Source: Naegleria gruberi (Eukaryota). From it: a stretch of DNA of 64,000 nucleotides. The stretch lies in assembly GCA_000004985.1 (NCBI GenBank), contig GG738907.1. One strand, 5' to 3'. Position numbers and translations under genes: made by a program. Shown here piece by piece: positions 9,622 through 58,187 of the stretch. How positions within the stretch are numbered: the first letter of the stretch is position 1; every line of letters begins with the position of its first letter. A model generated the notes under the pieces. The model made no database searches, was not told where the DNA came from, and saw only the letters and a program-made list of their open reading frames with translations.

Positions 9622-10377
9622 CTATTTACACATTTTACAACAACAAACACAACAGCAAACCAAGATTAAGATTATAAATCCTAAAATCATAGCTCCTCCA
9701 ACAACAACACCAGCAACAATTCCACTTGAGGCACTTCCAGGTGATTTGTAAACAAGTGCCAAATTGGTAACACCACTACTTGATTTCTGGCATGAAGGTG
9801 TGAAATTATCAACTGAGGAACACAAGATAAAATCAGAGGTGAATGCAATTTCACCTTCCTTAATATTGAAACAAATTGGAACACTATCGGAATTGTACTT
9901 TAGAATGGCATTGTACAAATTACTTAATGGTCTCTTAACAATAGTTCCAATTGAATAGGTAAACTTGACAATGTTATGAGAAACTTCAATACTGCTCGGT
10001 GTTGAATTCAACATGGTGAGTGGAATCATTTGTTGATTGCAATTTTCATCGTACAAGGTTAAATCACCTAATAACCAAGTTCCGGATGGGATTGTTGAGG
10101 ATTGACGAGTGTGTTTGTTGTTACTTTCGAGTTGGTTGATAAAGTTTTGGCGAGCTTCTTGGCTGTATCTTGTCTTGGCTGTTTGGATGAACGAGTTTAG
10201 TTTGGTTTCGACTTGGTTGAGCTTTTTGTTCCATGATGATCGGAAAGGATTGTCAATACAGTGGACACTGTTTACCATGAGCAAAGCTGCAAGAGAAAGC
10301 AATAGGAGAATTGGGAGAAGGAAATTTCTTCTCTTGTTAATGTTGCGAATTGTGTTATTCGAAACTTGTGACGACAT
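9622..10377 (-). CDS. Type I membrane protein with signal peptide, ~200-aa ectodomain, single TM and poly-cysteine tail (paralog A)
   Basis: A 251-aa ORF. It has an N-terminal hydrophobic signal (FLLPILLLLSLAALLMV) and a C-terminal TM (IVAGVVVGGAMILGFIILILV). The protein ends in CCCVCCCKMCK. It shares blocks with the neighbouring ORF: PLSNLYNAILKYNSDSVPICFNIKEGEIAFTSDFILCSSV against PFSTLYNGVLTYQKDSAPVCFDLKNGALSLSTDFLLCSSV. Confidence 0.5.
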   Translation of the reverse strand: MSSQVSNNTIRNINKRRNFLLPILLLLSLAALLMVNSVHCIDNPFRSSWNKKLNQVETKLNSFIQTAKTRYSQEARQNFINQLESNNKHTRQSSTIPSGTWLLGDLTLYDENCNQQMIPLTMLNSTPSSIEVSHNIVKFTYSIGTIVKRPLSNLYNAILKYNSDSVPICFNIKEGEIAFTSDFILCSSVDNFTPSCQKSSSGVTNLALVYKSPGSASSGIVAGVVVGGAMILGFIILILVCCCVCCCKMCK

Positions 10378-10697
10378 TTTTTTATCTTGTTAGAAGAGAA
10401 TCATGTAATTCATCTCCTTCCTTTTATTCTCCTTTCTCAATTAGTTTTTTTGGAATGGCCCTCTCACGCATTTCCTTACCACTTTGAATTGGCAACGATT
10501 CATCACCCAACGTCAGTTTCGACAAGTTTCTATCATTGATTTTTTCACACAAACATTCTAAAAGGAAAAGTCAACTACAGTATTCCATCTCATTCTCCTA
10601 AAATATTGAAACTCTTGTCAATTTTATTAATAGCGAACACTTGTTGTGGTAGTAGTATTGGGAACCGAACCATTGTGCGAGATGAGAAGAGTTTCGT

Positions 10698-11504
10698 TCA
10701 TTGAACCCATAGCCATTCTGTTTCTTCTTCTTCTTCTTCGGCCATGCAACAGCAACAACAGACACAACAAGCAATACAGAAAACAATTACCAAGACAATG
10801 ACAATGACAACACCAGCAATGGAAGCTGAAGTAATTGTTCCTGGACTATTGTAAGTAATTGTAACGGCATCTAATACGGATGAACAAGTTGGTTTTTCAT
10901 TCACTGAGCTACACAATAAGAAATCAGTTGATAATGATAAGGCACCATTCTTGAGATCGAAACAGACTGGAGCTGAATCCTTTTGGTAAGTTAAGACACC
11001 ATTATAGAGAGTGCTAAAAGGTCTTTGAACTACACTGTCAATTGTCAATAAGGAAACTCCAACAACTGAAACAGTAATGGAAGATCCAGTTGATTTCATT
11101 TGAATGAATGGATAGGTTTTAGTTTCACATCCTCCACCACCACCAGATTTGGCAGTATAGACAGACATATCACCTGTATACCAAGATCCAACTAACAGAG
11201 TTGTATCAAGAGCCTTTCTCTTAATGGATTCCCGAGCTAGTTGTGATGAAAAATCAACTCTCATCTCCTCTGAATACATTTCCTTAGATTTCTTAATCAA
11301 TTCTTCAATGGCTTGATAATTATTTTCGGAAGAGCCATAGGATGACCATTGCTTAATTCTATTATTTACAGTTTGATCTTGGACCGCTTGTTCCGAAACC
11401 CTCAATGATGATGATCCCTCCACTGCTACCTTCATCATTATCATCATCACAAAAACAAGCAACAATCCAAGCTTACTTGAGAGAGAAAAATTAACGTTCA
11501 TCAT
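10698..11504 (-). CDS. Paralog B of the poly-Cys-tailed type I membrane protein
   Basis: A 268-aa ORF with the same architecture as 9622..10377: signal peptide, a coiled-coil-like segment, the conserved ectodomain blocks, a TM, then CIACCVCCCCCM and an acidic tail. The two genes are tandem on the same strand, about 320 bp apart. Confidence 0.5.
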   Translation of the reverse strand: MMNVNFSLSSKLGLLLVFVMMIMMKVAVEGSSSLRVSEQAVQDQTVNNRIKQWSSYGSSENNYQAIEELIKKSKEMYSEEMRVDFSSQLARESIKRKALDTTLLVGSWYTGDMSVYTAKSGGGGGCETKTYPFIQMKSTGSSITVSVVGVSLLTIDSVVQRPFSTLYNGVLTYQKDSAPVCFDLKNGALSLSTDFLLCSSVNEKPTCSSVLDAVTITYNSPGTITSASIAGVVIVIVLVIVFCIACCVCCCCCMAEEEEEETEWLWVQ

Positions 11505-11653: not shown

Positions 11654-12469
11654 TTATATGGAAATGAGTGGAACAGAAGGATCTCTATAATAATTCTTAT
11701 CAATTACTCTTTCAGAGAGGAAGGTAGTATCAATCTTTGTCCACAATGATCTGTTTGAGGAGAGATGTTCATGAATATCGACGTTTGGTGGTCGATTTGC
11801 AACTTTTTCCTTTTCAATGCAATGAATTCCACCACTTACATACTCCTCAATGCAATAACACTTGGAATCGGTCATGAGATATGGATTCACAACGTCATTA
11901 TTGCCAATTGGACAGTAGACAGCTTGAATTGGTTCATTAACTGTGAATTTTACAATACAAATTCCAAAGAACCAACATTCATTGGCAGATTGTGGAAATC
12001 TGAGTAATACACATGCTCCATTGTAATCTCCATTTTTAGAAGCATATGCTTCTCCATATTCTTCTCTAGTAGTATCAACTCCAATATAAATTTCGAATGG
12101 AGTTTCGTCTGCATTAAATTCCTTGATAAATGCCTTGAAATATGATTCAGATTCAATAATTGGATCTCTGTAATACATGCCATCACGAGAAATGACAGTT
12201 CCATTGTCCAATTCCATATCCTGATGGACCATGCACTCGGAAGTTTCCCTTCTTGCTTGCTTGTTAAAAGTATCTTCGAATATTTTCACAACTTTCTTAT
12301 CCTTTCGAACAAGAAAAACGAAAGAACGACCACCATTATCATGAGTAGCATAACAATCATAATCAGCAAATGATTGTTCGGTAAGATCGGTTTCCTTGAA
12401 GGAAGTAATTTGTGGTACGGTTGTTTGTGTTTGACATTTTTTTGAAGTATTTATTCTGTCAGCAGTCAA
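11654..12469 (-). CDS. Hypothetical Cys-containing protein (no recognised family); true start uncertain
   Basis: A 271-aa ORF whose first called codon is TTG. The first in-frame ATG is far inside (ECMVHQDM). A nearby aaaaaaATG lies in another frame. A short upstream exon or a downstream start is therefore possible. Confidence 0.35.
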   Translation of the reverse strand: MTADRINTSKKCQTQTTVPQITSFKETDLTEQSFADYDCYATHDNGGRSFVFLVRKDKKVVKIFEDTFNKQARRETSECMVHQDMELDNGTVISRDGMYYRDPIIESESYFKAFIKEFNADETPFEIYIGVDTTREEYGEAYASKNGDYNGACVLLRFPQSANECWFFGICIVKFTVNEPIQAVYCPIGNNDVVNPYLMTDSKCYCIEEYVSGGIHCIEKEKVANRPPNVDIHEHLSSNRSLWTKIDTTFLSERVIDKNYYRDPSVPLISI

Positions 12470-12664: not shown

Positions 12665-13483
12665 ATGCCGTTATCATCATCCTCATGGTTTGGGATGTCC
12701 CAATGCAATGATAGTGCAAATTCAGATGTTGATGAATTCTCCACCGAGAACCAACATGAAAGCAATCTCTTTTCCGATCAATTATCATCGGAAATTGTAA
12801 TTTTAATTGCCTCCTATTTGGATTTACGATCCTTGTATTGTTTTGCTAGAATTGATTCGTTCATGATTAAATTATTATTCAATATGGACAGGAATAGAGT
12901 GATGAAATTGGGTTATTTGAAAACTGTTATAAAAAAGCAGAAAAAGCAAGTGACACAGAATGAATTGATTCAATCAGATTCATTGATTGAGGAATACTCA
13001 AAAGAGGAAGATTGTAATTTTACAATGACACAAGAACAAGTTTGGAAAAATCTCGTCTGTTATTATTTTCCTCAATTTAAAAAGGATTTGACTGTAAAGA
13101 ATTGGATGCATATTATGAGGAGAAGAGTAGCTCATTTGAAATTATACGCTCCTGAACATTTACCTTTGGGAAATAGTATTCCAAGAGAGGTTTTCTCATT
13201 GGATTCTAAAAAGACGAGTAGAAATTTCATTGAGGGATGTGAATTTAATTACAAATGTCCACTTACGATTGAAATGACTGATAGTACGTATGATTGTACA
13301 GTTTGTAATAAGATTGTGTATTATGTTGACAATGAGATTTCATTCAAGACTCATGCTTCTCAAGGTCATTGTATCTATTATAAGAATATTGAAAACAATA
13401 TTGAATTTATGGGTGATATTTATGTACCTCCGGTTACTGGGCGTACCACTGGCATTAGCAATTTTTTTAATTTCCTAAATTAA
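12665..13483 (+). CDS. F-box domain protein
   Basis: A 272-aa ORF opening with ATG. The F-box-like motif is SEIVILIASYLDLRSLYCFARIDSFMIKLL. The C-terminal part is Cys/His-containing (CPLTIEMTDSTYDCTVCNKIVYY...HASQGHC). Confidence 0.5.
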   Translation: MPLSSSSWFGMSQCNDSANSDVDEFSTENQHESNLFSDQLSSEIVILIASYLDLRSLYCFARIDSFMIKLLFNMDRNRVMKLGYLKTVIKKQKKQVTQNELIQSDSLIEEYSKEEDCNFTMTQEQVWKNLVCYYFPQFKKDLTVKNWMHIMRRRVAHLKLYAPEHLPLGNSIPREVFSLDSKKTSRNFIEGCEFNYKCPLTIEMTDSTYDCTVCNKIVYYVDNEISFKTHASQGHCIYYKNIENNIEFMGDIYVPPVTGRTTGISNFFNFLN

Positions 13484-14570: not shown

Positions 14571-16076
14571 TTATTGATTAGTAAGACCTTCAATAGAATG
14601 TGTTGGGAAGGCAGAGTAGGAAATCAATCCAATGGCTATGAAAATTAGTAAATACGAAATGGCTATCAGAATCTTTTCTGCCAATTTAGTTCCTCTCAAT
14701 TCCAAGAAACACAATCCACAAATAATCGATGTCAAAATGGCAAAGAATGCATGAATGATAATTGGGAAATTACTTCTCCCTCCATATAAATGTTCTGCCA
14801 AGATTAACAGTAAAATGCTGCCATACCAAAATAATCCTTGGAAAATTGAGACAATGAGTCCTAAAATTCTGAAAACTCTGACATTCATACCACCTCCCAT
14901 GCAGACAAATCCACCAGAGCACAGGGCCATCTTTTTGATTGTTCTATTGTAGAGCAACAAGACGAAACATCCCATAAATACGAAAGGATACGAAATTGGG
15001 AATGAAATGCCAATAATAAAAACTCTAGCTCTAAAGAAATCAAATGGAGTATTAGCCAAATTATTTGGATCTACAGTTCTTTGTAACTTGTCAACCAAAG
15101 ATCCTGAACTGGTTGTCACCTTTGCAAGAAATGCAACTTCAAATAGGAAAAAGACAATCCCTGCCAAAGCTCCCAAAAACAATCCAATATAATACTTGAA
15201 GAGAACTCTCATTTTCAATGTTCGTGAAACATTTTTCTGACGTTCTGTCTCCTTCTTTACAACCTCAGTCCAATTAATTGTTTTTTCCATGTGTTCTCCT
15301 TCAGTTCGAGAAACAGTTTCGTCCTCCATTCTCTTCTCTCTCGTATTCTTCTCCACGAAAAAGTATCCCAGACACAGAAACAAAACTCCGAACACTATAA
15401 ATGGTAATGCCACACAAAACACAATTCCCTTCGAATTGGTAAAGATGTATTGAAGTGGATAGGCATAAATGGAAGAATTTGCACCATTCTCATAATCAAC
15501 ATCCTTTCCAGCAACCCAATATGTCATTATATTGAAGAATGAAGCAACTCCATAGACCATTATTCCACTCCATCCGAATCCAATGTATTCACTCGAGAGA
15601 GCCCACATTGAAAAGCCAAACACGACCCAAACAACGTGAGCTACCACCACACCAATCCAATCCTCGACTAGAAATAATCTAGACGAATCTAAACCATCCG
15701 AAACTTGTGAAAGATAGGTCGAATTAGTCGACGATTGATGAAAGTAATATTCCAGTGATGAGATTGGAACTAAACCCTGACAGAATAGCCCTACCAGTGG
15801 CCAAAACACCAAACCAAAGAACATACTAATCAACCAACTATTCTCAAATCTCCACAAAGTTTTCCTGTGAATTAGTTTAGTAAAGACTGGAGTGGGAACT
15901 AGGAAGAGAATGGAAAATATGCCACCAAATGCAGCACACAAGACACCTAGACCTGCGTTTTGTGCTGAGATAATGTCACTGGTAGATGTAGAGTTGGTGA
16001 TGGTGTCATTGACAAGTGACGTTGTGTTGTCTAGTAGTTGATAGATAAAGACATCATAAGATGATAAACTGGACAT
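14571..16076 (-). CDS. Multi-pass membrane protein, possible transporter (family not recognised)
   Basis: The ORF track gives 14571..16166 from a TTG start. The likely start is the ATG at 16076 (aaaaaaaATGtcc, MSSLSSYDV). There are about 10 predicted hydrophobic helices in two halves, separated by a charged loop (EKNTREKRMEDETVSRTEGEHMEK). Confidence 0.4.
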   Translation of the reverse strand: MSSLSSYDVFIYQLLDNTTSLVNDTITNSTSTSDIISAQNAGLGVLCAAFGGIFSILFLVPTPVFTKLIHRKTLWRFENSWLISMFFGLVFWPLVGLFCQGLVPISSLEYYFHQSSTNSTYLSQVSDGLDSSRLFLVEDWIGVVVAHVVWVVFGFSMWALSSEYIGFGWSGIMVYGVASFFNIMTYWVAGKDVDYENGANSSIYAYPLQYIFTNSKGIVFCVALPFIVFGVLFLCLGYFFVEKNTREKRMEDETVSRTEGEHMEKTINWTEVVKKETERQKNVSRTLKMRVLFKYYIGLFLGALAGIVFFLFEVAFLAKVTTSSGSLVDKLQRTVDPNNLANTPFDFFRARVFIIGISFPISYPFVFMGCFVLLLYNRTIKKMALCSGGFVCMGGGMNVRVFRILGLIVSIFQGLFWYGSILLLILAEHLYGGRSNFPIIIHAFFAILTSIICGLCFLELRGTKLAEKILIAISYLLIFIAIGLISYSAFPTHSIEGLTNQ

Positions 16077-16445
16077 TTTTTTTGTGTTGGTTATTTGGAC
16101 ATTTTGCAGTGACAATGTTGTGATGAATTTTTGCCAATAACGTTGATGGCTGACATATGGTGTCAAGTTTTTTCAAACATCATTAAAATTTAGGATGTAG
16201 GTGGCATTTTGGGAATTTCTTTGAGTTTCAGTGAATGTATTTAGGGTGAAGGCCTGTTTTTGTAATAAGGAAGTGATTCAAGTCAATTATTTTTCACACA
16301 AAGTTTACTTGAAAACTGTTAGAAAGTTCTTTAGAATTCAGTGATAATTCTTCAGTCATTCACATTCAAATATTCAAATATTTGTTGCTTTAGAGAATAT
16401 TACCTGATTATCTAACTCAATTCACTTTTTGTAAAGTTTTTATTT

Positions 16446-18186: not shown

Positions 18187-18592
18187 AAAATGATATTGAT
18201 TTGTAGAAATGATGAGTTTAAGAGAGGATGTTTAGAAAGTTGAGAATTCCCAACTCTATTTGATATTGATTCAATCCCTTCAAATCAAATTCTTGGTATT
18301 TTGTAAAGTACAGAGAATCAAGACGCCATTTCGCTCGATTTATCTCTTAAATTACTGGTCATCTTTTAAAAATCACAAATTGGTTTATTTCAGATTTCAA
18401 TAATTAAATACAACTTTCACTCCATTTCATTGTATTATGAATTGTATATTTTGAATAGTGTTTCTTCAAAGTATTGTTGTTATTATTTTGGCGGGTTGTA
18501 GTTTTCAAAAATACACCATGTGTCACTTGACATTTAGAAAATTCCTTAAATACTGAACTGTTTTCGAGAAATGATTGAATCAAAACAAAAAA

Positions 18593-20473
18593 ATGAATCA
18601 AAACAATAGATTCCTAGTGTTTGCGCTTCTAGGTCTTACTTGCTTGATTAGCTTCATTCTTACTAGCTCTGTAGTTGAAGGTAGAAGAGCTGCAGTTGTG
18701 CGTAAAGTTGCAGCTGTCAAGAAGCAATTGACCTACAAGAAATGTGAATCTGTTGGTGACCCTCATTATCTTTCTTTCACTGGTCAACGTTTCGATCACA
18801 TGGGATTAGGTGATTATGTTCTTGCTCAATCATCTGACAATCAATTCACAGTCCATGTTAGAACTAGTAAGTGGGGAGGTGCTGCAGCTGTCAATTCCAA
18901 TGTTGCTGTCAGATTAGGTAAAGGCGAGGATGATACTTTCGAATATGATGTCGAACAAGATGTTTTTTACCTTTCTGGTGTTAAGGCAAGTTTGGGTGTC
19001 AATCAAAAGGTTTCTCTTGGAACTGGTGATGTTCAAAGAATCAACACAAACACTGCTGTAGTTTCTGGCTCAAATGGTATCAAGATGACCATGTCTTGGT
19101 ATCGTCATGCTGCTTGGAAGCAACAATTGGGTTCTGTTGGTTATATTTCAGTTGTCATTGATGCTCCAAGTGATATTACTTTCAATAAGGGTATGTGTCT
19201 TGGTGCTTCCGAAGCTTCTCAACAAGCCATTGATATTCTCCACAACCATGTCCAAAGAAGAATTGCTAGAAAGGCTGAACTCAAGAAGGCTACTCCAAAG
19301 AGATCTAGATCTGCTAGAAAGGTCTGTAAGAAGGCTGGTTTGAATAAGAAGCAAAATCCATTCGCTTGGAAGTCTTGTGTCAAGGATGCTATTCAATCTG
19401 GATCCAAGATTGGTTTGAAGATTGGTCAAAACATCAAGAAGGTCAAAGTTGCTGAAAAGAAGGTTTTGAAGAAGGAAATCAAGAAGAAGGCTAAGAAGAT
19501 TGTTCGTAAGGAAAAGAAGGCTATTGAAAAGGCAAAGAAGGAAGCTGACTTGTTGAAGAAGAAGGCCGATCAAGCTCAAAAGAAGGCAACTCAAAAGAGA
19601 GCCAAGTGTGCTAAACGTGCTTCAAGAAAGGCCAGACGTGCTGCTAGAAGAGCAAGACGTGCTGCCAAAAGACTTGCCAAGAAGAAGCAAATTCTCAAAA
19701 AGGTCAAGAAAACCATTAAGAGATCTGTTCGTACCAAGATTACTATTGTCAAGAACTGGAAGAAAATCATCAAGAAGGTTTTGAATGATAGAAAGAAGGC
19801 CCTCAGAGCTGCTAAGAAGGCAAGACAAGCTGCTAAGAAAGCTATTAAAGAAGCTTCAAGAAAGGCCAGAAAAATTGCTGAAGAAAAGAAGAGACAAGCT
19901 GAAGAATTGGCCAGAAAGCTCCAAAGAGATGCTGAAGCTGCTGCTAAGAAATTGAGAGATGCTGTTGAAGCTGCTGCTAGAAAGGCAAGAGAAGCTGCTG
20001 AAAGAGCTAGACAACAAGCTGAAAATGCTAAATTGGAAGCAACTCGTCGTGCTAGAGTAAAAGCTGCAAGATTGGCCAAGTTAGCTAGAGAAGCTGCTGA
20101 AAGAGCTGCCAAGCAACAAAGAGCTATCCTTGAACAAATCCAAAAGCTTGCTAAATTGGCTGCTATCAAAAAGGCTCAACAAGAAGCTGAAGCAAAGAAG
20201 AGAGCTGCTGAAGCATTGAGACTTGTTGAAGAAGCCAAGAGAAAGGCTGCTGAAGCTCTTGAACGTGCTAAGGCTGAAGCAACCAGAAGAGCCATTGAAA
20301 TTGCTGACAGATTAAGAAAGGCTGCTGAAAAGGCTGCTGAAGAAGCTGCTAAAAGAGTCAAGATGGTTGAAGAATTGAAGAAGAAAGCCCTTAAGGATGT
20401 TGAAAAGCAAGCTAGAAAGCTCCTTAATGGTGGTGTTTCCAAGGGAAAGACTGTATGTTTCAGACTTCCTTAA
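18593..20473 (+). CDS. Secreted protein: signal peptide + von Willebrand D-like domain with GDPH motif + ~430-aa Lys/Ala/Glu/Arg-rich helical repeat
   Basis: The ATG at 18593 gives MNQNNRFLVFALLGLTCLISFIL, a signal peptide. KCESVGDPHYLSFTGQRFDHMGLGDYVLAQSS matches the VWD start C-x-x-GDPHY-x-TFDG, the motif that flanks the autocatalytic Asp-Pro site in VWD/RGM proteins. From about 19380 to 20440 the sequence is an uninterrupted K/A/R/E-rich helical low-complexity region (KKAKKIVRKEKKAIEKAKKEADLLKKKADQAQKKA...). Confidence 0.6.
   Translation: MNQNNRFLVFALLGLTCLISFILTSSVVEGRRAAVVRKVAAVKKQLTYKKCESVGDPHYLSFTGQRFDHMGLGDYVLAQSSDNQFTVHVRTSKWGGAAAVNSNVAVRLGKGEDDTFEYDVEQDVFYLSGVKASLGVNQKVSLGTGDVQRINTNTAVVSGSNGIKMTMSWYRHAAWKQQLGSVGYISVVIDAPSDITFNKGMCLGASEASQQAIDILHNHVQRRIARKAELKKATPKRSRSARKVCKKAGLNKKQNPFAWKSCVKDAIQSGSKIGLKIGQNIKKVKVAEKKVLKKEIKKKAKKIVRKEKKAIEKAKKEADLLKKKADQAQKKATQKRAKCAKRASRKARRAARRARRAAKRLAKKKQILKKVKKTIKRSVRTKITIVKNWKKIIKKVLNDRKKALRAAKKARQAAKKAIKEASRKARKIAEEKKRQAEELARKLQRDAEAAAKKLRDAVEAAARKAREAAERARQQAENAKLEATRRARVKAARLAKLAREAAERAAKQQRAILEQIQKLAKLAAIKKAQQEAEAKKRAAEALRLVEEAKRKAAEALERAKAEATRRAIEIADRLRKAAEKAAEEAAKRVKMVEELKKKALKDVEKQARKLLNGGVSKGKTVCFRLP
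19380..20440 (+). repeat. Coding low-complexity repeat: ~1 kb of Lys/Ala/Arg/Glu codons (aag/gct/aga/gaa periodicity) inside the VWD gene
   Basis: Visible as reiterated aagaaggc, gctgctaagaa, gaagctgctg units. This creates spurious long ORFs in other frames on both strands. Confidence 0.7.
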
Positions 20474-23196: not shown

Positions 23197-23791
23197 TTTT
23201 TTTAATTGTTAGTTGTTTGATTTGTAACATCAGATGATTGCTTTATTGCTTTTCATAAGATGATTGCAATCATGTTATCTTCCTGATGAAGATCAGCTGG
23301 CTGCCTCCAACAGACAAAAATTCAACTCATTGGACAACGATGATGATCATAAAAGTTTAATGTGGCTTGTTTTGTGTGGCGTTTAATGTCCTATCGGAAT
23401 GAATCCATTTGGTAGACAATTATTTTCGTTATAGTAATCAGGAATGATGGTTCCTTTCTCTTTACAAAGTTGCTGTTGTTAGCAAAGAAATAGGATTGTT
23501 CAATTCATTGTTTGGAAATTTCCAAGTTGTATTATTAAACGTTTTTGTTCATGTAATTAGCGCCATATTGACCGTTACATATTTTTTAAATATTCAAATT
23601 TTTTTAAAAAAACAATTTCAAACAAATAGGATGAAAAGGAATAATTGTATTATTGGCAATTTTGGCGGATGATAATAGTGCATACCCGTGATACTTTTCA
23701 GGTCCATACAACAAGTGGTGCAAAATTGGTTTAGATAGTGAATAAGTGGTAAAGTAATGGCAAAAAATTGGTGGAATTTTCAGAAAACAAA

Positions 23792-26700
23792 ATGTTCAAA
23801 GGCTCATACTACGAGAAGGTTCTTGATGAAGAGGAGAGTTTCAAACCAACAACAACACCATCATCACCATCAGAACAACATGAAGATGTAGATAGTACTT
23901 CTTCGGAGGAAAATAATATACTTCCACCAATGATATCATCTCCAATGGAAAAGAAGGAAAATATAACGGTTGATCGAATGGAAACAAAGGCTTGTTCGAA
24001 GGCTTGTTGTTCTTCATCATCATCATCGAAGGCTGGTTGCTCAGAGGAAGAAGAACAACACGAACATTCGGCAGTTAATAGTACTCACAAACATAGTAAA
24101 AGAGGAACGAAATCAAAGTTGATGTATGGAAAGAAGAAGATCAAAATTAGTCAACTGCAACATTTGACAAAACAACATGATGAACATCATCACGAAGAAG
24201 AAACGACGTCAGAAACAACAAACATTTGCGAGAAGTCAAGCTCTTCTAATTGTTGTTCTTATGGTTCTTGCTCAAAGGAAAAACAAAAAGAACCAAACAA
24301 TGCAATTGTTTCAGATTGCTGTTCTTCAGGTTCCTGTTCCAAGAAAAGCAATGTTCCAGTTGAGAAGAAATCAACATGTACTTCTGGTTGTTGCCAGTCA
24401 GTATCAACTTCCACTGAGAGCAGAACAGAATTGAAATTGGATAATTTACTTCCTAATCACAAGTCTCTGCATTTGACTGTGAGAAATTTGCATTGTGCTG
24501 ATTGTGCCAATATGGTTGAGGGAGTTTTAATTAAGAAGAATGGTATTCTGAATGCCAGAGTGAATAGTATGACAGATTCAGCTCATGTAGTATATGACGA
24601 ATTAATTATACAAGAAACATTAATTGTAAAATCAATTCAAGACCTTGGATTTCCAACTAGTGTCTCTCTATTGAAAAACATTTCAAATTCTGATCAGGAA
24701 ACTCTTACAACCATGTTCGAATTCAAACAGGAGTTACAAACACACAAAGTAGATGAATTAGTTAAGAGCATTGAAAAAGGGGATGGCATTATTCATACGG
24801 CCTATGATACATCGAGTTGTCTCCTCCAAGTGGCTTACAATCCTGATATTACAGGTACAAGAGATATTAAGAAAATGATTGAAACCATCGATTCGAGCCA
24901 TATGTTTACAATTATGAGTGGTAGTAAAGCTAACGAGATTACCGATCAGAACAATAAGAATGAAATCAAAATATGGAGGAGAAACCTTATTGTTTCCTTC
25001 ATTCTTAGTATTCCAGTCATATTTACAGCATTCATCTTTCCAATGATCAAACCAGTTGATGAATTTTTGAAGAAGGAATTCTTACAAGGCCTCAATAGTT
25101 ATATTCTTATTGGATTTATTTTCTCAACACCAATCCAATTTTATTTTGGAAGACCATTGTACATGTCAGCTTACAGAGCTCTACGATATGCAAAAAAGCC
25201 AAACATGGATACACTTGTAATGCTGTCAACTACCACTGCTTATGTTTACTCGTTAGTGAGTACAATAATTGCAATGTTTGTTGAGACTTACAAGGCCGAA
25301 GCATTCTTTGAAACTTCGGCACTCTTGTTGACATTTATCATTTTGGGAAGGTAGGTTTTCTTACTTGTTATTAATTTTATTTATAATTACTATTAAGGTT
25401 TTTGGAAATACTTGCCAAAGGACAAACTTCGAGCATACTTACTTCCATTTTGAAACTCAGATGCACCAAAGCTTTTTTGATATTCAGAGGAAACTATGAA
25501 AGAATAACATGTCAAACCGAACTTGTAAATAATTCACATGCTGTAGAGGAAGAGGAGATTGATACTGATCTTGTTCAAAGAGGCGACATTTTAAAATGCC
25601 TTCCAGGTTCAAAAATTCCAACTGATGGAGTAGTGTTTTATGGCACTACATCGATTGATGAATCAATGATTAGGTAAGTTTTGAACCATAATTTAATTTG
25701 ACATTATTCAACCATAATAGTGGTGAATCTATTCCAGTTAACAAGGATGTTGGAGATTTTGTTTATGGCAGTACAATCAATCAATTTGGAACAATCTATA
25801 TCCGTGTAACAAAAACTAGTTCTGAAAATACTCTTTCTTCAATTGACAAATTAATTCACGAATCTCAAAATGCTAAAGTACCCATTCAAAGAATTGCTGA
25901 TAATGTTAGTGCAGTGTTTGTACCTGTAATTATTGGTATTTCCTTATTGGCTTTTATTATTTGGATCAGTTTGTGTTATGCTGGAGTTTTGGAAACTGAC
26001 CTGCATCCAATCACCTTTGCTTTACAGTTCTCTCTTGCAATTTTGGTAATTAGTTGTCCTTGTGCTATTAGTTTGGCAGCTCCAACAGCTGTGATGGTCG
26101 GTATCGCCAAAGGTGTTGAGTATGGTGTACTATTCAAGAATGGTGCTGTAATTGAGATGTGCCACAAGGTTAACACAGTCATATTTGACAAGACTGGTAC
26201 CTTAACCAATGGAAAACCAGTTGTTACAGACGTGTTGCTTTTTGAGGGAGATGATTTGAAGCAATTCAAAGCAATTATAGGTTCTGCAGAGTTGGGAAGT
26301 GAACACGTTATTGGAAAGGCTATTTCAACACACGTAGAAAAGGAGGGAATAGCTATAGAACAACCTGTTGATTATCAAGCAGTTCCAGGAAAAGGATTAA
26401 AATGTACAGTCTATGGAAAACAAGTGATTGCAGGTAATTGCACTTGGATGAAGGACAATTCAATTGAAATTTCAGAAACACAACAAGAACAAATTTTAAC
26501 TTTGGAGAATCAAGGAAAGACAATTGTTCACGTTGCAATCGATGGTTCTTTACATGGAATTGTTGCCCTCTCTGATACTCTCAAGGTGGAATCCAAACGA
26601 GTTATTGATGAATTGAAGAAGAAGAATGTGGAAATTTGGGTGGTTAGTGGAGACAACCAAGTCACAACTAGATATATCGCCAACCAATTAGGCATTGAGA

Positions 26701-27155
26701 ATGTAATGGCCAATGTCCTTCCAGCCTACAAGAGAGAAAAAGTGCTTGAATTGCAACAAGGTAAAACTTCCAATGGTAAAAAGAGAGTTGTTGCAATGAT
26801 TGGAGATGGTATCAATGATTCACCATCTCTAGCCCAAGCAGATGTTGGTTTTGCAATTGGATGTGGTTCAGATATTGCCTTAGAAACTGCGGATATCATT
26901 TTGGTAAAGAGTGATTTGAGAGATGTGCTTGTGGCTTTGGATTTGTCAAGGACTACTTTCAGAAGAATCAAACTCAACTTTTTATGGGCCTTCCTTTATA
27001 ATGCTGTTGGTATTCCATTATCTGCTGGAGCATTCTATCCAATCCTTGGTATTGCAATTCCACCAGCTATTGCAGGATTATCTGAGATTTTCTCTTCCAT
27101 TCCTGTAATTCTCTTCTCCTTACTTTTGAAATTCTACAAACCAAAGATTTATTAA
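23792..27155 (+). CDS. Copper-transporting P1B-type ATPase, 3 exons (23792..25350, 25398..25673, 25721..27155; two 47-nt introns)
   Basis: The N-terminus is Cys/His-rich, followed by an HMA-like domain (LTVRNLHCADCANMVEG). The CPC transport motif is ISCPCAISLAAP. Exon junctions restore ILGR|FLEILAKGQTS and DESMI|SGESIPV, the actuator (T/S)GES motif. Other motifs are DKTGTLT and GDGINDSPSLAQADVGFAIG. The first ATG is at 23792; the called ORF begins at an upstream TTG. Confidence 0.8.
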
Positions 27156-54315: not shown

Positions 54316-57300
54316 TTAAACAGAAGAAACAGTTACTTTCTTTCGATGTGTCAAAAACCATAATCTCAGTCCAAATGCTATACATGCCACAAGTCCCATA
54401 CCTCCAACTATTGGAATACTAATTAAGGCAAATAAGGCATACATGCTATTATCATTGGATTGTGAACAAATATTACTTTTACATCCATCTCCACAATAAT
54501 TAGCTTGGCACTGATCACAATTTGATCCAGTCCAATAACCATCTGCAGAATTGGCTTTACACTGACATATGTTTTGTGAAATGCAAAGTCCGTGACCTCC
54601 ACAAACAGCAGAATTGGTTTTTGGAATTTCAAAACATGTCCAAGAATCTGAATTGCCTGGAGTTTTTGTGGAATTTTGTGTTGTTGATTGAGTAGTATTA
54701 TTTACAAGAGTGTTATTATTACTTGTCGTGGTAGTATTTACATTATTGCCTATAAGTGTATTATTATTTACAATTGTGTTATTTGAAGAGTTAGTATTTG
54801 TAATATTATTATTTGTTATATTGTTTACAGTAGAATTATTATTCAATGACACAGTCTCATTTGTATTCATTGTTGTATTATTCGAATTATTGACAGTAGT
54901 GTTATTTGTAATAGTATTATTTGTAACGGTAGAATTTGAATTAAGTGTTGAGTTTGAAATAGCGTCATTGCTTAATGTTCCATTATTGTTTGGAATTGAA
55001 TTATTGGTATTGGAATTATTCATCTCTAGAGTGGTAGTATTTACAATAATTGAGCAATCCAATCCCTTCCATCCAAATTGACAATCACACTTATTTACAG
55101 TTGAACAGTTTCCATTTCCGGAACACACTGAACTATCATTGGCAAAAATGTTAAAGCAAGAAGGGATGGAACAATCGAATCCAAACCATCCATTAAAGCA
55201 TTGACAAGAATCAGTTGCTGTGCAATTACCATTTCCAGAACAAACTGAGCTCTCATTGCTTACAATTCCAAAACAAGTGGACAATTCACAATTATTTCCA
55301 TAAAAACCAGGATTACAAATGCAAGTATTTGGTGAATTACAAACTCCTCTTGATGAACAAACTTTTGAAGAATTTGAAATAATTCCAAAACATTTAGAGA
55401 ATTCACAAAATTGACCACCGTATAAATCTCCACAATCACAAACATCAGGTGCAAAACAAACACCCAAGCCATTACAGACATTTGGATTGTTGGCAAAGGT
55501 TCCATTGCATGTACGAAGTGTGGATATTACTCTTAGTCGACTATTGTCAGAGTCAATTACAATTATTTCACCATTTCGTCTTAAAATTACTCCAGATGGA
55601 TTATTGATTTTTGAAGCGGAGGCAGTGGTTCCATCTTCACTGTAACCCAAATCACCAGTTCCTGTAATGGTGGTGATATTACCATTAGAGAGAACTCTTC
55701 TAATTCTATTATTGTACGAATCTGCAATCAAGAGTTCATCACCGTCAATGGCAATTCCTTGTGGATATTTGAGTTGTGCATTTGTTGCTTCGATTCCATC
55801 ACCGTTATAACCTAATGTGCCTGTTCCTGCAACAGTTATAATTGTTCCATTAGTAAACATCTTTCTTATTCTATTGTTATAAGTATCTATTTGAATTAGT
55901 TCATCAATTGAAGATTCTTATTTCACTTACCTGCAATGTACATGTTATTACTTGAATCAAATGCGATAGATTGTGGATAATTCAGCTTGGTATTGTTCGG
56001 TAAGAGATAATCACCATTAAAACCAACAGAGCCTCCAATAACTGTGGAAATATTTCCACTTGGTAATATTAGTCTAATTCTATGATTATACGTATCTGTA
56101 ATATAAACAAGATCATTTGAATCAACAGTTACTGAAACTGGGGAATTGAGTTTCGCATTTGTTGCTGGAATTCCATCGCCATTGTAGCCACCTAATCCAA
56201 CTCCAGCTATAGTAAGAATTGTACCATTTGTCAAAATTTTTCTAATTCTATTATTACCAGAATCTGGTAAAGTTTCAATACAAAAAATAATGGAAGATTA
56301 CTTACCTGCAATATAAATATTACCAATGGAATCAAATGCAATTCCTGTTGGTTTGTTAACTTGAGCACTTGTTGCCAAAATTCCATCTCCATTATAACCA
56401 AAAGATCCAGTACCTGCAATGGTTGTGATGGTCCCATCCAAGTACGAAATCTTTCTAACTCTGTGATTGCTTGTATCTGTGAAAATCATTGAAACCTTAA
56501 TAAATTTCACACAATCAACTGAAAACTTACCAGCAATGTAAATATTTCCCAATGAATCCAATGCAGCACCTTTAGGTTTACTCAATGCGCTCAATCTAGA
56601 ATCAACATTTTCACCACAATATGATGGAGAACCTTGTCCAGCTATTGTGGTAATAAATCCATTTGAAATCTTTCTAATTCTGTGATTTCCCTTATCAGCA
56701 ATATATAAATCACTTGTGTTCTTGGCAAAATTCATCAATTCAGGAGAGGCAAGAGTTGCCAAATTGACCGTAGTATTATCAGTAAAACCATACAAACTCG
56801 TTCCTGCAAATGTTGTAATGGTTCCATTGGTAGACACCTTTCTAATTCTATTAGAATCTGAAAAATAAACTTCGCCTAATGATGAAACTGCAACTCCATA
56901 AGGTGAATTAATTTTAGCTAAGGTTGCCAGGCCTCCATCTCCATAATAATCACCTGTTCCAGTACCGGCTATGGTTACAATAGTGCCATTCAATAATACT
57001 TTACGAATTCTGTTATTATTGGTGTCAGCAATATAAATATTGTCTTTCGTATCAACAGCAACACCAAAGGAAAGAAACAAAGTTGCACTCGTAGCTTTCA
57101 TGTTATCTCCATTGTAACCTGTGAAAAAGTAATAAATTAAAAAACAGTTCCGTTAAAATACATACCTTGAGAATTGCTTCCTGCCACTGTTATAATTGTT
57201 CCATTGTTGAACACTTGGCGAATTCTATTATTGTTCACGTCGGTAAAGAGTAATTCTTCCTTGCTATTTAATGTAAGGCCATAAGGATAATTAATAGCTG

Positions 57301-57790
57301 CATTTCTGGCCAATCCATTATCTCCAGAAAAGGAATCAACTCCAGTTCCGACAATGGTTATAATAGTACCATTGGTTAATATCTTTCTAATTCTATTGTT
57401 GCCATTATCACTGAACAACACCTCTCCCATAGAATTAACAACTACTGATACAGGATTTTTCAATTGAGCTCTAATTGCTTCAATTCCATCTCCGTTATAT
57501 CCTGAAAATCCAGTCCCTGCAATTGTTGTAATGGTGCCATTTGGAAATACTTGACGAATTCTGTGATTATTGCTATCTGCAATGAAGAGTGAACCATCTG
57601 GACCCAATGCTGATGATGCAGGATTTGCCAAAGAAGCCTTAATTGCCAAGCCACCATCACAAACACCTCCACCTGCAATTGTTGTGATTCTTCTCAATGA
57701 TGTAGTATTCTGTGCTTGAATTGTTGCAAGAGCGCTTGAAAGTAATAGGAAGACGCTGAGCCAGTAGAATGGATTTTGAGTATTGTACAT
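54316..57790 (-). CDS. Type I transmembrane receptor-like protein: signal peptide + ~14 NHL repeats + tenascin-type EGF repeats + Asn/Thr-rich stalk + TM; 4 exons (57166..57790, 56306..57118, 55931..56263, 54316..55886; introns 47, 42, 44 nt)
   Basis: Signal peptide MYNTQNPFYWLSVFLLLSSALA. The NHL-type repeat ...DSNNHRIRQVFPNGTITTIAGTG..GYNGDG... recurs. All three splice junctions fall within the repeat and restore it: NSQ|G YNGDN, IAG|D SGNNRIRKI, IAG|D TYNNRIRKM. The EGF repeats are CNGLGVCFAPDVCDCGDLYGGQFCE, CSSRGVCNSPNTCICNPGFYGNNCE and further copies. The N/T/S-rich stalk carries many NxT/S sites. The TM is LFALISIPIVGGMGLVACIAFGL, followed by a short basic tail. Confidence 0.65.
54640..55040 (-). 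repeat. Coding Asn/Thr-rich low-complexity tract (aat/act/aca/att repeats) forming the stalk of the NHL-EGF receptor
   Basis: The sequence is dominated by attatt / tgttatt / agtatt units. It translates to NNTITNNTTVNNSNNTTMNTNETVSLNNNSTVNNITNNNITNTNSSNNT. Confidence 0.6.
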
Positions 57791-58187
57791 GGTTTTGATG
57801 TCAACTGGGTTTTTTTCTTTTTGTTTTCCTGTTGCATATATGATTAATAAATGTTCTAGAGATGCAATGAAGTGTAAGAGCTCAAATTCTAGCTGCATCC
57901 AACCAAATTAAGCCCTTAATCATTTGATCTCTATTGGAATGATATATTTGGATTTCCATGGAGATCCTTGGGTTGTTGAGGAAGAGTTCAACACACAACT
58001 CGTCGAACAACATAAGAATCCAAAATTCCTTAGATATCCTACACTACACTCGATCTTATTAGAATTAATAAATAAATCTGTTGAGTTTCCACATGAGTTT
58101 CTCTAATTGTCAACAAATGTCATTGAATTACACAATCATTGCTAGACACATTCATATGATTTATTCAATTCCAAAACAACTTTGAAA

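What the first reader, a model, noticed from the sequence alone, without database searches (positions are those of the whole stretch)
9622..11504. Tandem pair of novel membrane proteins ending in poly-cysteine tails
Two adjacent same-strand genes encode paralogous type I membrane proteins with signal peptide, ectodomain, TM, then CCCVCCCKMCK or CIACCVCCCCCM. The runs of 6-9 cysteines immediately after the TM look like multi-palmitoylation or metal-binding platforms. The conserved ectodomain blocks do not match any family I recognise. A recent tandem duplication of a lineage-specific surface protein sits next to other secreted or membrane genes.
Basis: seen in the sequence. Interest (0 to 1): 0.5.

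Follow-up and report, generated by a model that had tools for sequence, protein, structure and literature searches.

The report
Naegleria membrane proteins with cysteine-patch anchors
Two neighbouring genes of the amoeba Naegleria gruberi encode old paralogues of a small, Naegleria-only family of single-pass surface-type membrane proteins whose membrane anchor ends in a dense patch of cysteines, most likely a site for attaching several fatty acids; this is real and uncharacterised, but of an ordinary kind.

Summary
There are two intact, separate, same-strand (minus) genes at 9622-10377 and 10698-11504. They are 36% identical (E 1e-33). Each has an N-terminal signal sequence, a ~170-aa luminal domain, one TM helix and a cysteine patch: 7 Cys in the last 11 aa of A, and 8 in 11 aa of B.

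- The organism is Naegleria gruberi (NAEGRDRAFT_81609 and _53043), not a dictyostelid.
- B does not end at CCCCCM. It continues with AEEEEEETEWLWVQ.
- The duplication is old, not recent. Synonymous sites are saturated, and A is closer to dispersed paralogues than to B.
- The immediate neighbours are not membrane or secreted genes.

A profile search of 1.84 billion protein representatives found only 8 clusters. Those with a source name are N. gruberi (5 paralogues) and N. lovaniensis; the rest are unnamed environmental sequences. Every full-length member keeps 4-8 Cys in the cytosolic half of the TM helix or just after it, often as CCxxCCxxC. There is no Pfam or PDB sequence match.

The best reading is a type I membrane protein, multiply S-acylated on the cysteine patch. 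That step is inferred, not shown. Interest is modest.

The parts
9622..10377 (-). Gene A, single exon, 251 aa. It is NAEGRDRAFT_81609 / XP_002671262.1 / D2VXJ4, annotated 'predicted protein'.
   Evidence: ORF. It is 100% identical over 100% of its length to the N. gruberi protein P0001.
10258..10377 (-). A residues 1-40: a charged n-region (…NKRR), the hydrophobic core FLLPILLLLSLAALLMV and a putative signal-peptidase site VHC|ID.
   Evidence: Hydropathy. The cleavage site comes from the -3/-1 rule and is an inference. No signal-peptide predictor was run.
9745..10077 (-). A residues 101-211: predicted eight-stranded up-and-down beta-barrel with the four family-conserved Cys (C113, C169, C186, C196). 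A helical hairpin (residues 44-85, nt 10123-10248) precedes it.
9658..9720 (-). A residues 220-240: TM helix IVAGVVVGGAMILGFIILILV (21 aa).
9625..9657 (-). A residues 241-251: cysteine patch CCCVCCCKMCK, which is the whole cytosolic tail. The stop codon is at 9622-9624. The DNA is (TGT)n-like.
10378..10697 (.). 320-bp intergenic spacer between the stop of B and the start of A.
   Evidence: There is no long ORF here and no continuity of frame between the two genes.
10698..11504 (-). Gene B, single exon, 268 aa counted from the first ATG. It is NAEGRDRAFT_53043 / XP_002671263.1 / D2VXJ5. The public model (245 aa) starts at Met24 and so lacks the signal sequence.
   Evidence: All paralogues with intact N-termini carry an N-terminal hydrophobic segment.
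11415..11504 (-). B residues 1-30: signal-like segment (K11, core LGLLLVFVMMIMM, putative site VEG|SSS).
   Evidence: The cleavage site is inferred.
10848..11189 (-). B residues 106-219: predicted eight-stranded beta-barrel. A helical hairpin (residues 64-97) precedes it.
10746..10820 (-). B residues 229-253: TM helix with its cysteine patch, IAGVVIVIVLVIVFCIACCVCCCCC. The 8 Cys lie in residues 243-253, nt 10746-10778.
10701..10742 (-). The stop codon is at 10698-10700.
   Evidence: The (TTC)6 repeat on the plus strand is at 10722-10739.

Best explanation
A and B are two anciently diverged paralogues of a small family found so far only in Naegleria and unnamed environmental sequences. N. gruberi has at least five copies and N. 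lovaniensis one.

Inferred mechanism:
1. Each protein enters the ER through a cleaved N-terminal signal sequence.
2. It folds a luminal/extracellular domain: a helical hairpin plus a compact eight-stranded beta-barrel held by four conserved cysteines (probably two disulfides). The conserved Y-x-S-P-G linker places this domain within about 8 residues of the membrane.
3. It is anchored by one TM helix.
4. The cysteines in the cytosolic-leaflet half of that helix and just after it are S-acylated (palmitoylated) by DHHC acyltransferases.
5. Several acyl chains then pin the very short tail to the inner leaflet. This would stabilise the protein and bias its sorting and its partition into ordered membrane.

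The remaining tail differs between paralogues. A has none. B has an acidic cluster followed by WLWV. The other paralogues end in YxxPhi-like motifs (NYGRLN, MYTRVN, SYNQF). This suggests that paralogues differ in surface retention versus endocytic cycling.

Shown here: gene structure, paralogy, restricted distribution, conservation of the Cys patch, and predicted topology and fold.
Inferred only: signal cleavage, disulfides, S-acylation, sorting, and any ligand binding by the barrel.
For: - Intact separate ORFs, identical to N. gruberi proteins.
- Paralogy, E 1e-33.
- Family restricted to 8 clusters among 1.84e9 representatives. A second word-index search added no new members.
- Every full-length member has SP + ectodomain + TM + 4-8 Cys at the cytosolic end, despite ectodomain identities of only 22-57% and saturated synonymous sites. 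The patch is therefore maintained by selection.
- Four invariant or near-invariant ectodomain Cys and a conserved SPG linker.
- Two independent AF2 models give the same architecture.
- Literature: coronavirus spike is acylated on 10 cytosolic cysteines (bioRxiv 10.1101/2021.03.14.435299).
- Literature: yeast CYSTM C-terminal Cys patches are palmitoylated (PMC10840359).
Against: - There is no experimental or expression evidence for these genes. No paper mentions any of the five N. gruberi locus tags.
- I did not verify that N. gruberi has DHHC enzymes. That rests on general knowledge that DHHC acyltransferases are pan-eukaryotic.
- In most paralogues the Cys follow a CCxxCCxxC helical-face pattern. 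That would also fit helix packing or metal binding.
- The Cys tract is (TGT)n-like DNA that can expand by slippage. The exact number of Cys may therefore be partly neutral.
- B's tail is strongly acidic, contrary to the usual positive-inside bias.
Confidence: 0.6

Rival explanations
1. The cysteine stripe is a thiol-based metal-binding or redox module at the inner face of the membrane. This is the role originally proposed for CYSTM proteins and CDT1-type cadmium/copper tolerance factors. On this reading it is not primarily an acylation site.
For: - The CCxxCCxxC spacing in P0002, P0003, P0005 and P0007 puts the thiols on one helical face. This is the 'ridge of sulfhydryls' idea of Venancio and Aravind (PMC2804304).
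- CYSTM has 3-4 consecutive Cys followed by an acidic residue. B has CCCCC-M-A-EEEEEE.
Against: - The Pfam CYSTM model does not match, even at E<=10.
- The architecture differs: signal peptide, folded ectodomain and a separate TM, whereas CYSTM proteins are small and tail-anchored with a disordered N-terminus.
- The yeast CYSTM patch itself turned out to be palmitoylated and is not a TM helix (PMC10840359).
- Accessible juxtamembrane Cys are acylated generically (PMC5668376).
Confidence: 0.15
2. The cysteines are mainly small, mildly hydrophobic TM residues used for helix-helix packing or oligomerisation. Alternatively they are a tolerated by-product of T/G-rich triplet slippage (TGT/GTT/TTG), and their number has no specific function.
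For: - (TGT)n-like tracts detected by TRF at 9637-9660 and 10747-10774.
- Cys number varies from 4 to 8 between members.
- V, C and L, the three reading frames of (TGT)n, dominate the segment.
- Poly-Cys strings are common in out-of-frame readings of this genome's low-complexity DNA.
Against: - The patch is retained in every full-length member, across saturated synonymous divergence and in two named species.
- Cys codons are mixed TGT/TGC. The tract is not a pure recent repeat.
- The position is fixed at the cytosolic end of the TM helix.
Confidence: 0.2
3. Annotation artefact. The two ORFs would be exons of one gene, or the poly-Cys ends would be out-of-frame read-through.
For: Poly-Cys strings do arise in wrong frames elsewhere in the window. 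The public model of B has a questionable start.
Against: - Each ORF has a full SP-ectodomain-TM-Cys architecture and aligns end to end with paralogues and with the N. lovaniensis protein.
- A 320-bp spacer with stops lies between them.
- They are separate NCBI models.
- The Cys patch is in the same frame as the TM helix.
Confidence: 0.02

Closest known systems
Cysteine-rich juxtamembrane endodomains of type I viral glycoproteins (coronavirus spike)
   Same: Both are type I membrane proteins with a dense Cys cluster where the TM helix meets the cytosol. In spike, 10 cytosolic Cys are S-acylated (10.1101/2021.03.14.435299). The tail is short, and the lipidation is thought to organise surrounding lipids and trafficking.
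   Different: There is no sequence or fold relationship. Foldseek spike matches have probability <=0.09. The Naegleria proteins are tiny (~250 aa) and cellular, with a single beta-barrel ectodomain. Their acylation is untested.
CYSTM / CYSPD (Pfam PF12734) cysteine-rich C-terminal modules
   Same: Both have a C-terminal hydrophobic stretch with 5-6 or more Cys, including 3-4 consecutive Cys. An acidic residue follows the patch, as in B. The module sits at or near the extreme C-terminus. The yeast members are palmitoylated (PMC2804304; PMC10840359).
   Different: CYSTM proteins are under 150 aa and have no signal peptide. Their N-terminus is a cytosolic, non-globular Pro/Gln-rich region, and they have no separate TM helix. 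The Pfam model does not hit A, B or four relatives even at E<=10.
Calycin-type eight-stranded beta-barrels (lipocalins, YceI-like, nitrobindin)
Prominin TM1 with Cys-rich cytosolic boundary, and CYYR1
   Same: Sub-threshold Pfam alignments cover the TM helix plus the Cys cluster.
   Different: E-values are 0.02-0.5, far below the gathering scores. The matches are compositional only, and the overall architectures are unrelated.

Membership tests
CYSTM / CYSPD (PF12734) | Significant match to the CYSTM profile | tested here: not met
   hmmscan against Pfam-A at E<=10 on A, B, P0003, P0007, P0008 and P0011 lists no CYSTM hit.
CYSTM / CYSPD (PF12734) | Small protein (<150 aa) without a signal peptide, with a non-globular Pro/Gln-rich cytosolic N-terminus (PMC2804304) | tested here: not met
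   Members are 234-268 aa. They have an N-terminal hydrophobic signal segment and a predicted folded ectodomain with 4 conserved Cys.
CYSTM / CYSPD (PF12734) | C-terminal hydrophobic segment with 5-6 Cys, 3-4 of them consecutive, followed by an acidic residue, at the extreme C-terminus | tested here: inconclusive
   A has CCCVCCC four residues from its end, with no acidic residue. B has CCCCC followed by M-A-EEEEEE. The other paralogues follow the patch with basic residues. This is a resemblance in composition only.
S-acylated (palmitoylated) type I membrane proteins (a functional class, not a homology family) | Single-pass topology with Cys at the cytosolic TM boundary, accessible to DHHC enzymes | tested here: met
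   Hydropathy and AF2 place the Cys in the C-terminal third of the TM helix or just after it, on the side opposite the disulfide-containing domain. [quoted passage not shown]
S-acylated (palmitoylated) type I membrane proteins (a functional class, not a homology family) | Thioester-linked fatty acid demonstrated on those Cys | not testable with these tools
   This needs acyl-biotin exchange, acyl-PEG exchange or click chemistry.
Lipocalin / calycin superfamily | Sequence signature (structurally conserved regions; Pfam Lipocalin or YceI models) | tested here: not met
   No Pfam hit. No PDB sequence hit at E<=10.
Lipocalin / calycin superfamily | Eight-stranded antiparallel up-and-down beta-barrel enclosing a ligand cavity | tested here: inconclusive
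The Naegleria family itself (A, B, NAEGRDRAFT_63015, _81655, _66875, N. lovaniensis C9374_011079) | Ectodomain profile match, four conserved Cys, SPG linker, TM helix and Cys patch | tested here: met
   Profile E-values are 6e-79 (A) and 8.5e-65 (B). Conserved columns.

The most novel reading that the evidence does not exclude
The family could be a Naegleria invention: lipocalin/YceI-like hydrophobic-ligand-binding barrels tethered a few residues above the plasma or phagosomal membrane. A multiply acylated anchor would concentrate them in ordered lipid domains, and the paralogue-specific tails (none, acidic, YxxPhi) would partition them between the surface and the endocytic route. They might capture lipids or sterols for an amoeba reported to prefer lipids as fuel (PMC7526813). 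On this reading the Cys patch would be one of the densest natural S-acylation platforms in a cellular protein.
Probability: 0.1. Interest if true: 0.55.

Novelty: new variant of a known kind. Interest (0 to 1): 0.3.

Why it matters
If the patch is acylated, these would be compact natural models of extreme multi-site S-acylation (7-8 sites within 11 residues). They come from a deep-branching eukaryote, which makes them useful for asking how acyl number tunes the sorting of single-pass proteins. The family also adds an uncharacterised set of surface or endomembrane proteins, found so far only in Naegleria, to a genus that includes the pathogen N. fowleri.

Two practical corrections follow. The public gene model of B (XP_002671263) probably lacks its first 23 codons, and with them the signal sequence. 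The 'recent duplication' idea is wrong.

Otherwise the finding is ordinary. Lineage-specific small membrane proteins with juxtamembrane cysteines are common in eukaryotes.

Tried and rejected
- Pfam scans at E<=0.01 and E<=10 gave no family. The weak hits were all compositional TM matches: Prominin, CYYR1, EphA2_TM and RIFIN.
- A PDB sequence profile search gave 0 hits.
- Foldseek against PDB gave nothing with E<0.06. The afdb50 library was unavailable.
- Scans of JGI metagenome contigs and IMG/VR viral contigs with ectodomain patterns found no relatives. An origin in or link to giant viruses is therefore not supported. One alignment was too diverse to make patterns from.
- Exact look-ups of P0003 and P0005 for genomic context failed. 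I could not check whether other N. gruberi paralogues are also tandem.
- dN/dS between A and B is uninformative: pS is 0.75, which is saturation, and NG86 dS is about 6.
- Literature searches for the locus tags, Naegleria + palmitoylation, Naegleria + DHHC and Naegleria + palmitoyltransferase found nothing about these genes or about Naegleria S-acylation.
- The gene downstream of the environmental member P0011 (L005:1149-1532) is not a family member.
- The 'one gene, two exons' and 'out-of-frame poly-Cys' ideas were rejected (see rival explanations).
- The copper P-type ATPase 13 kb away was considered as a link to a metal role. It is too distant and unrelated to count.

Full report
**What is in the sequence.** The interval holds two uninterrupted ORFs on the minus strand.
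- A spans 9622-10377 (251 aa) and B spans 10698-11504 (268 aa). A 320-bp spacer separates them.
- A is 100% identical over its full length to the Naegleria gruberi 'predicted protein' NAEGRDRAFT_81609 (XP_002671262.1).
- B matches NAEGRDRAFT_53043 (XP_002671263.1), the next accession on the same 275-kb scaffold.
- So the window is N. gruberi, not a dictyostelid. This fits its ~34% GC, its long and mostly intron-free ORFs, and its eukaryotic neighbours: RagA/Gtr1, Rad51 and RNA polymerase I Rpa2.

**Check of the observation.**
- A and B are paralogues: BLASTP 36% identity over 171 aa, E 1e-33.
- Each has an N-terminal hydrophobic segment after a short charged n-region and one C-terminal hydrophobic segment.
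- A ends with the TM helix IVAGVVVGGAMILGFIILILV followed by CCCVCCCKMCK and a stop.
- B has IAGVVIVIVLVIVFCIACCVCCCCCM. Contrary to the finding, it then continues with AEEEEEETEWLWVQ. No GT follows the ATG codon, and the public model keeps this tail.
- Cys is 2.07% of residues in the window's long ORFs, so 7 of 11 and 8 of 11-13 are far beyond chance (P about 5e-10 and below 4e-11).
- Poly-Cys strings do appear at 15 other places in the six-frame translation. All of these are stop-ridden, out-of-frame readings of CAA/CAG/ACA low-complexity DNA.
- Only A and B carry such strings in ORFs of 80 aa or more. They are in frame with the TM helix and conserved in homologues. The 'read-through artefact' and 'two exons of one gene' refutations therefore fail.

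**The family.**
- A word-index search found three further N. gruberi or near-identical environmental relatives of A.
- An exhaustive HMMER profile search used the ectodomain against 1.84 billion representatives. It found only 8 clusters with E<=1e-3.
- Those clusters are A, B, NAEGRDRAFT_66875 (within the P0007 cluster), N. lovaniensis C9374_011079, and unnamed environmental sequences or fragments.
- With NAEGRDRAFT_63015 and _81655, N. gruberi has at least five paralogues on four scaffolds.
- A third search with a broader alignment added no new members.
- Pattern scans of JGI metagenome and IMG/VR contigs found none.
- No Pfam family matches, even at E<=10. No PDB sequence matches. No paper mentions the locus tags.
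- The family is therefore an uncharacterised orphan family, seen so far only in Naegleria and unnamed environmental sequences.

**Age of the duplication.**
- In the ectodomain, A is 53% and 49% identical to the dispersed paralogues 63015 and 81655, and 57% to an environmental sequence. It is only 37% identical to its neighbour B.
- In a neighbour-joining tree, B branches outside the A + 63015 + 81655 group.
- Nei-Gojobori synonymous differences between A and B are at saturation (pS 0.75), with pN 0.49.

**Architecture.**
- Alignments show four conserved ectodomain cysteines (A: C113, C169, C186, C196), conserved motifs (RPxSxLYN, PxC, DFxxCSSV) and an invariant Y-x-S-P-G linker directly before the TM helix.
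- AlphaFold2 models of A (pLDDT 70.5, pTM 0.60) and of B (pLDDT 70.0, pTM 0.57) were built from different alignments.
- Both models give a helical hairpin, then eight sequential beta-strands, then a long TM helix.
- Foldseek finds nothing significant.
- I read this as a small up-and-down eight-stranded barrel with calycin-like topology. It is not evidence of lipocalin membership or of a ligand pocket.

**The cysteine patch.**
- Every full-length member carries 4-8 Cys in the cytosolic half of the TM helix or just after it.
- This conservation holds across saturated synonymous divergence and two named species, which argues for selection.
- In the less dense members the pattern is CCxxCCxxC (CCFICCIVC, CCVVCCVVLC, CCIGCIACC), which places the thiols along one helical face.
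- In A and B the intervening positions have also become Cys.
- The DNA is (TGT)n-like, so slippage probably modulates the number of Cys.

**Cytosolic tails.** What follows the patch differs between paralogues:
- A has nothing beyond KMCK.
- B has an acidic cluster plus WLWV.
- Three paralogues and the N. lovaniensis protein end in YxxPhi-like motifs a few residues from the C-terminus: NYGRLN, MYTRVN and SYNQF.
- From general knowledge of tyrosine-based sorting signals, this suggests different trafficking for different paralogues. That is inference only.

**Most likely mechanism.** These are type I insertion proteins with a disulfide-stabilised luminal barrel. The cysteine patch is multiply S-acylated, and the acyl chains pin the tail to the inner leaflet and influence stability, sorting and lipid environment.

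The acylation step rests on three published findings:
- The coronavirus spike endodomain is acylated on 10 cytosolic cysteines (10.1101/2021.03.14.435299).
- The yeast CYSTM Cys patch is palmitoylated (PMC10840359).

Acylation was not tested here. I also did not verify that Naegleria has DHHC enzymes; their presence is assumed from their pan-eukaryotic distribution.

**Rivals.**
- A thiol-based metal or redox function in the CYSTM/CDT1 sense. The one-face Cys stripe and B's acidic follow-on fit the description in PMC2804304, but the CYSTM profile and architecture tests fail.
- A mainly structural or neutral TM-packing/slippage explanation.

**Context.**
- The immediate neighbours are soluble proteins: a 628-aa coiled-coil ORF, two unassigned ORFs and RagA.
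- The nearest membrane ORF (multi-pass, 14571-16166) and a VWD-domain secreted ORF (18575-20473) lie 3-7 kb away.
- There is no meaningful clustering with secreted genes.

**Verdict.** This is a real, conserved and uncharacterised feature. It belongs to a familiar class: single-pass membrane proteins with juxtamembrane cysteine clusters. It is notable mainly for the density of the patch and for the orphan beta-barrel ectodomain. Interest is 0.3.

Noticed in passing
window 11435-11504 (first 23 codons of gene B): The public model of B (XP_002671263, 245 aa) starts at Met24 and omits the hydrophobic signal segment encoded from the upstream in-frame ATG at 11504. All paralogues with intact N-termini have such a segment, so the public model is probably N-terminally truncated.
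   Followed up: partly
L002:4574-5331 and L003:2180-2937 (unnamed Naegleria contigs, syntenic with N. lovaniensis L004:8001-8726): The orthologue of N. lovaniensis C9374_011079 is broken by a ~7-nt insertion and a 2-nt deletion about 50 nt apart, which creates a stop. The break is identical in two independent assemblies (Logan SRR29240419, ENA ERZ2098899). This looks like a recent pseudogene, since the rest of the frame, including the Cys patch, is still open.
   Followed up: partly
Paralogue C-termini (P0003, P0005, P0007/P0012, P0008): Their tails end in YxxPhi-like motifs (NYGRLN, MYTRVN, SYNQF) 1-2 residues from the C-terminus. A has no tail, and B has an acidic EEEEEETEWLWVQ tail. This may reflect differences in sorting between paralogues.
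   Followed up: no
window 9637-9660 and 10747-10774: The Cys patches are encoded by (TGT)n-like low-complexity DNA (TRF periods 12 and 9). On the plus strand the same DNA reads as ACA/CAA repeats. Fifteen other poly-Cys strings in the window are out-of-frame readings of similar repeats.
   Followed up: yes
window 23768-25354 and 25698-27155 (+): A heavy-metal (HMA domain) P-type ATPase is split over two ORFs, presumably by an intron. It lies ~13 kb from the Cys-patch genes, which is probably coincidental.
   Followed up: no
window 54316-57898 (-): Three consecutive ORFs carry NHL repeats and teneurin-like EGF domains. They are probably exons of one large secreted or surface protein.
   Followed up: no
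window 18575-20473 (+): An ORF with an N-terminal signal-like segment and a von Willebrand factor type D domain. The opposite strand carries an overlapping 192-aa ORF (19591-20169) in a GC-richer stretch, and out-of-frame readings of the region also contain poly-Cys strings.
   Followed up: no
window 11654-12469 (-) and 12665-13483 (+): These are the two ORFs between gene B and RagA. They have no Pfam match and no hydrophobic segments, and they were not studied further.
   Followed up: no
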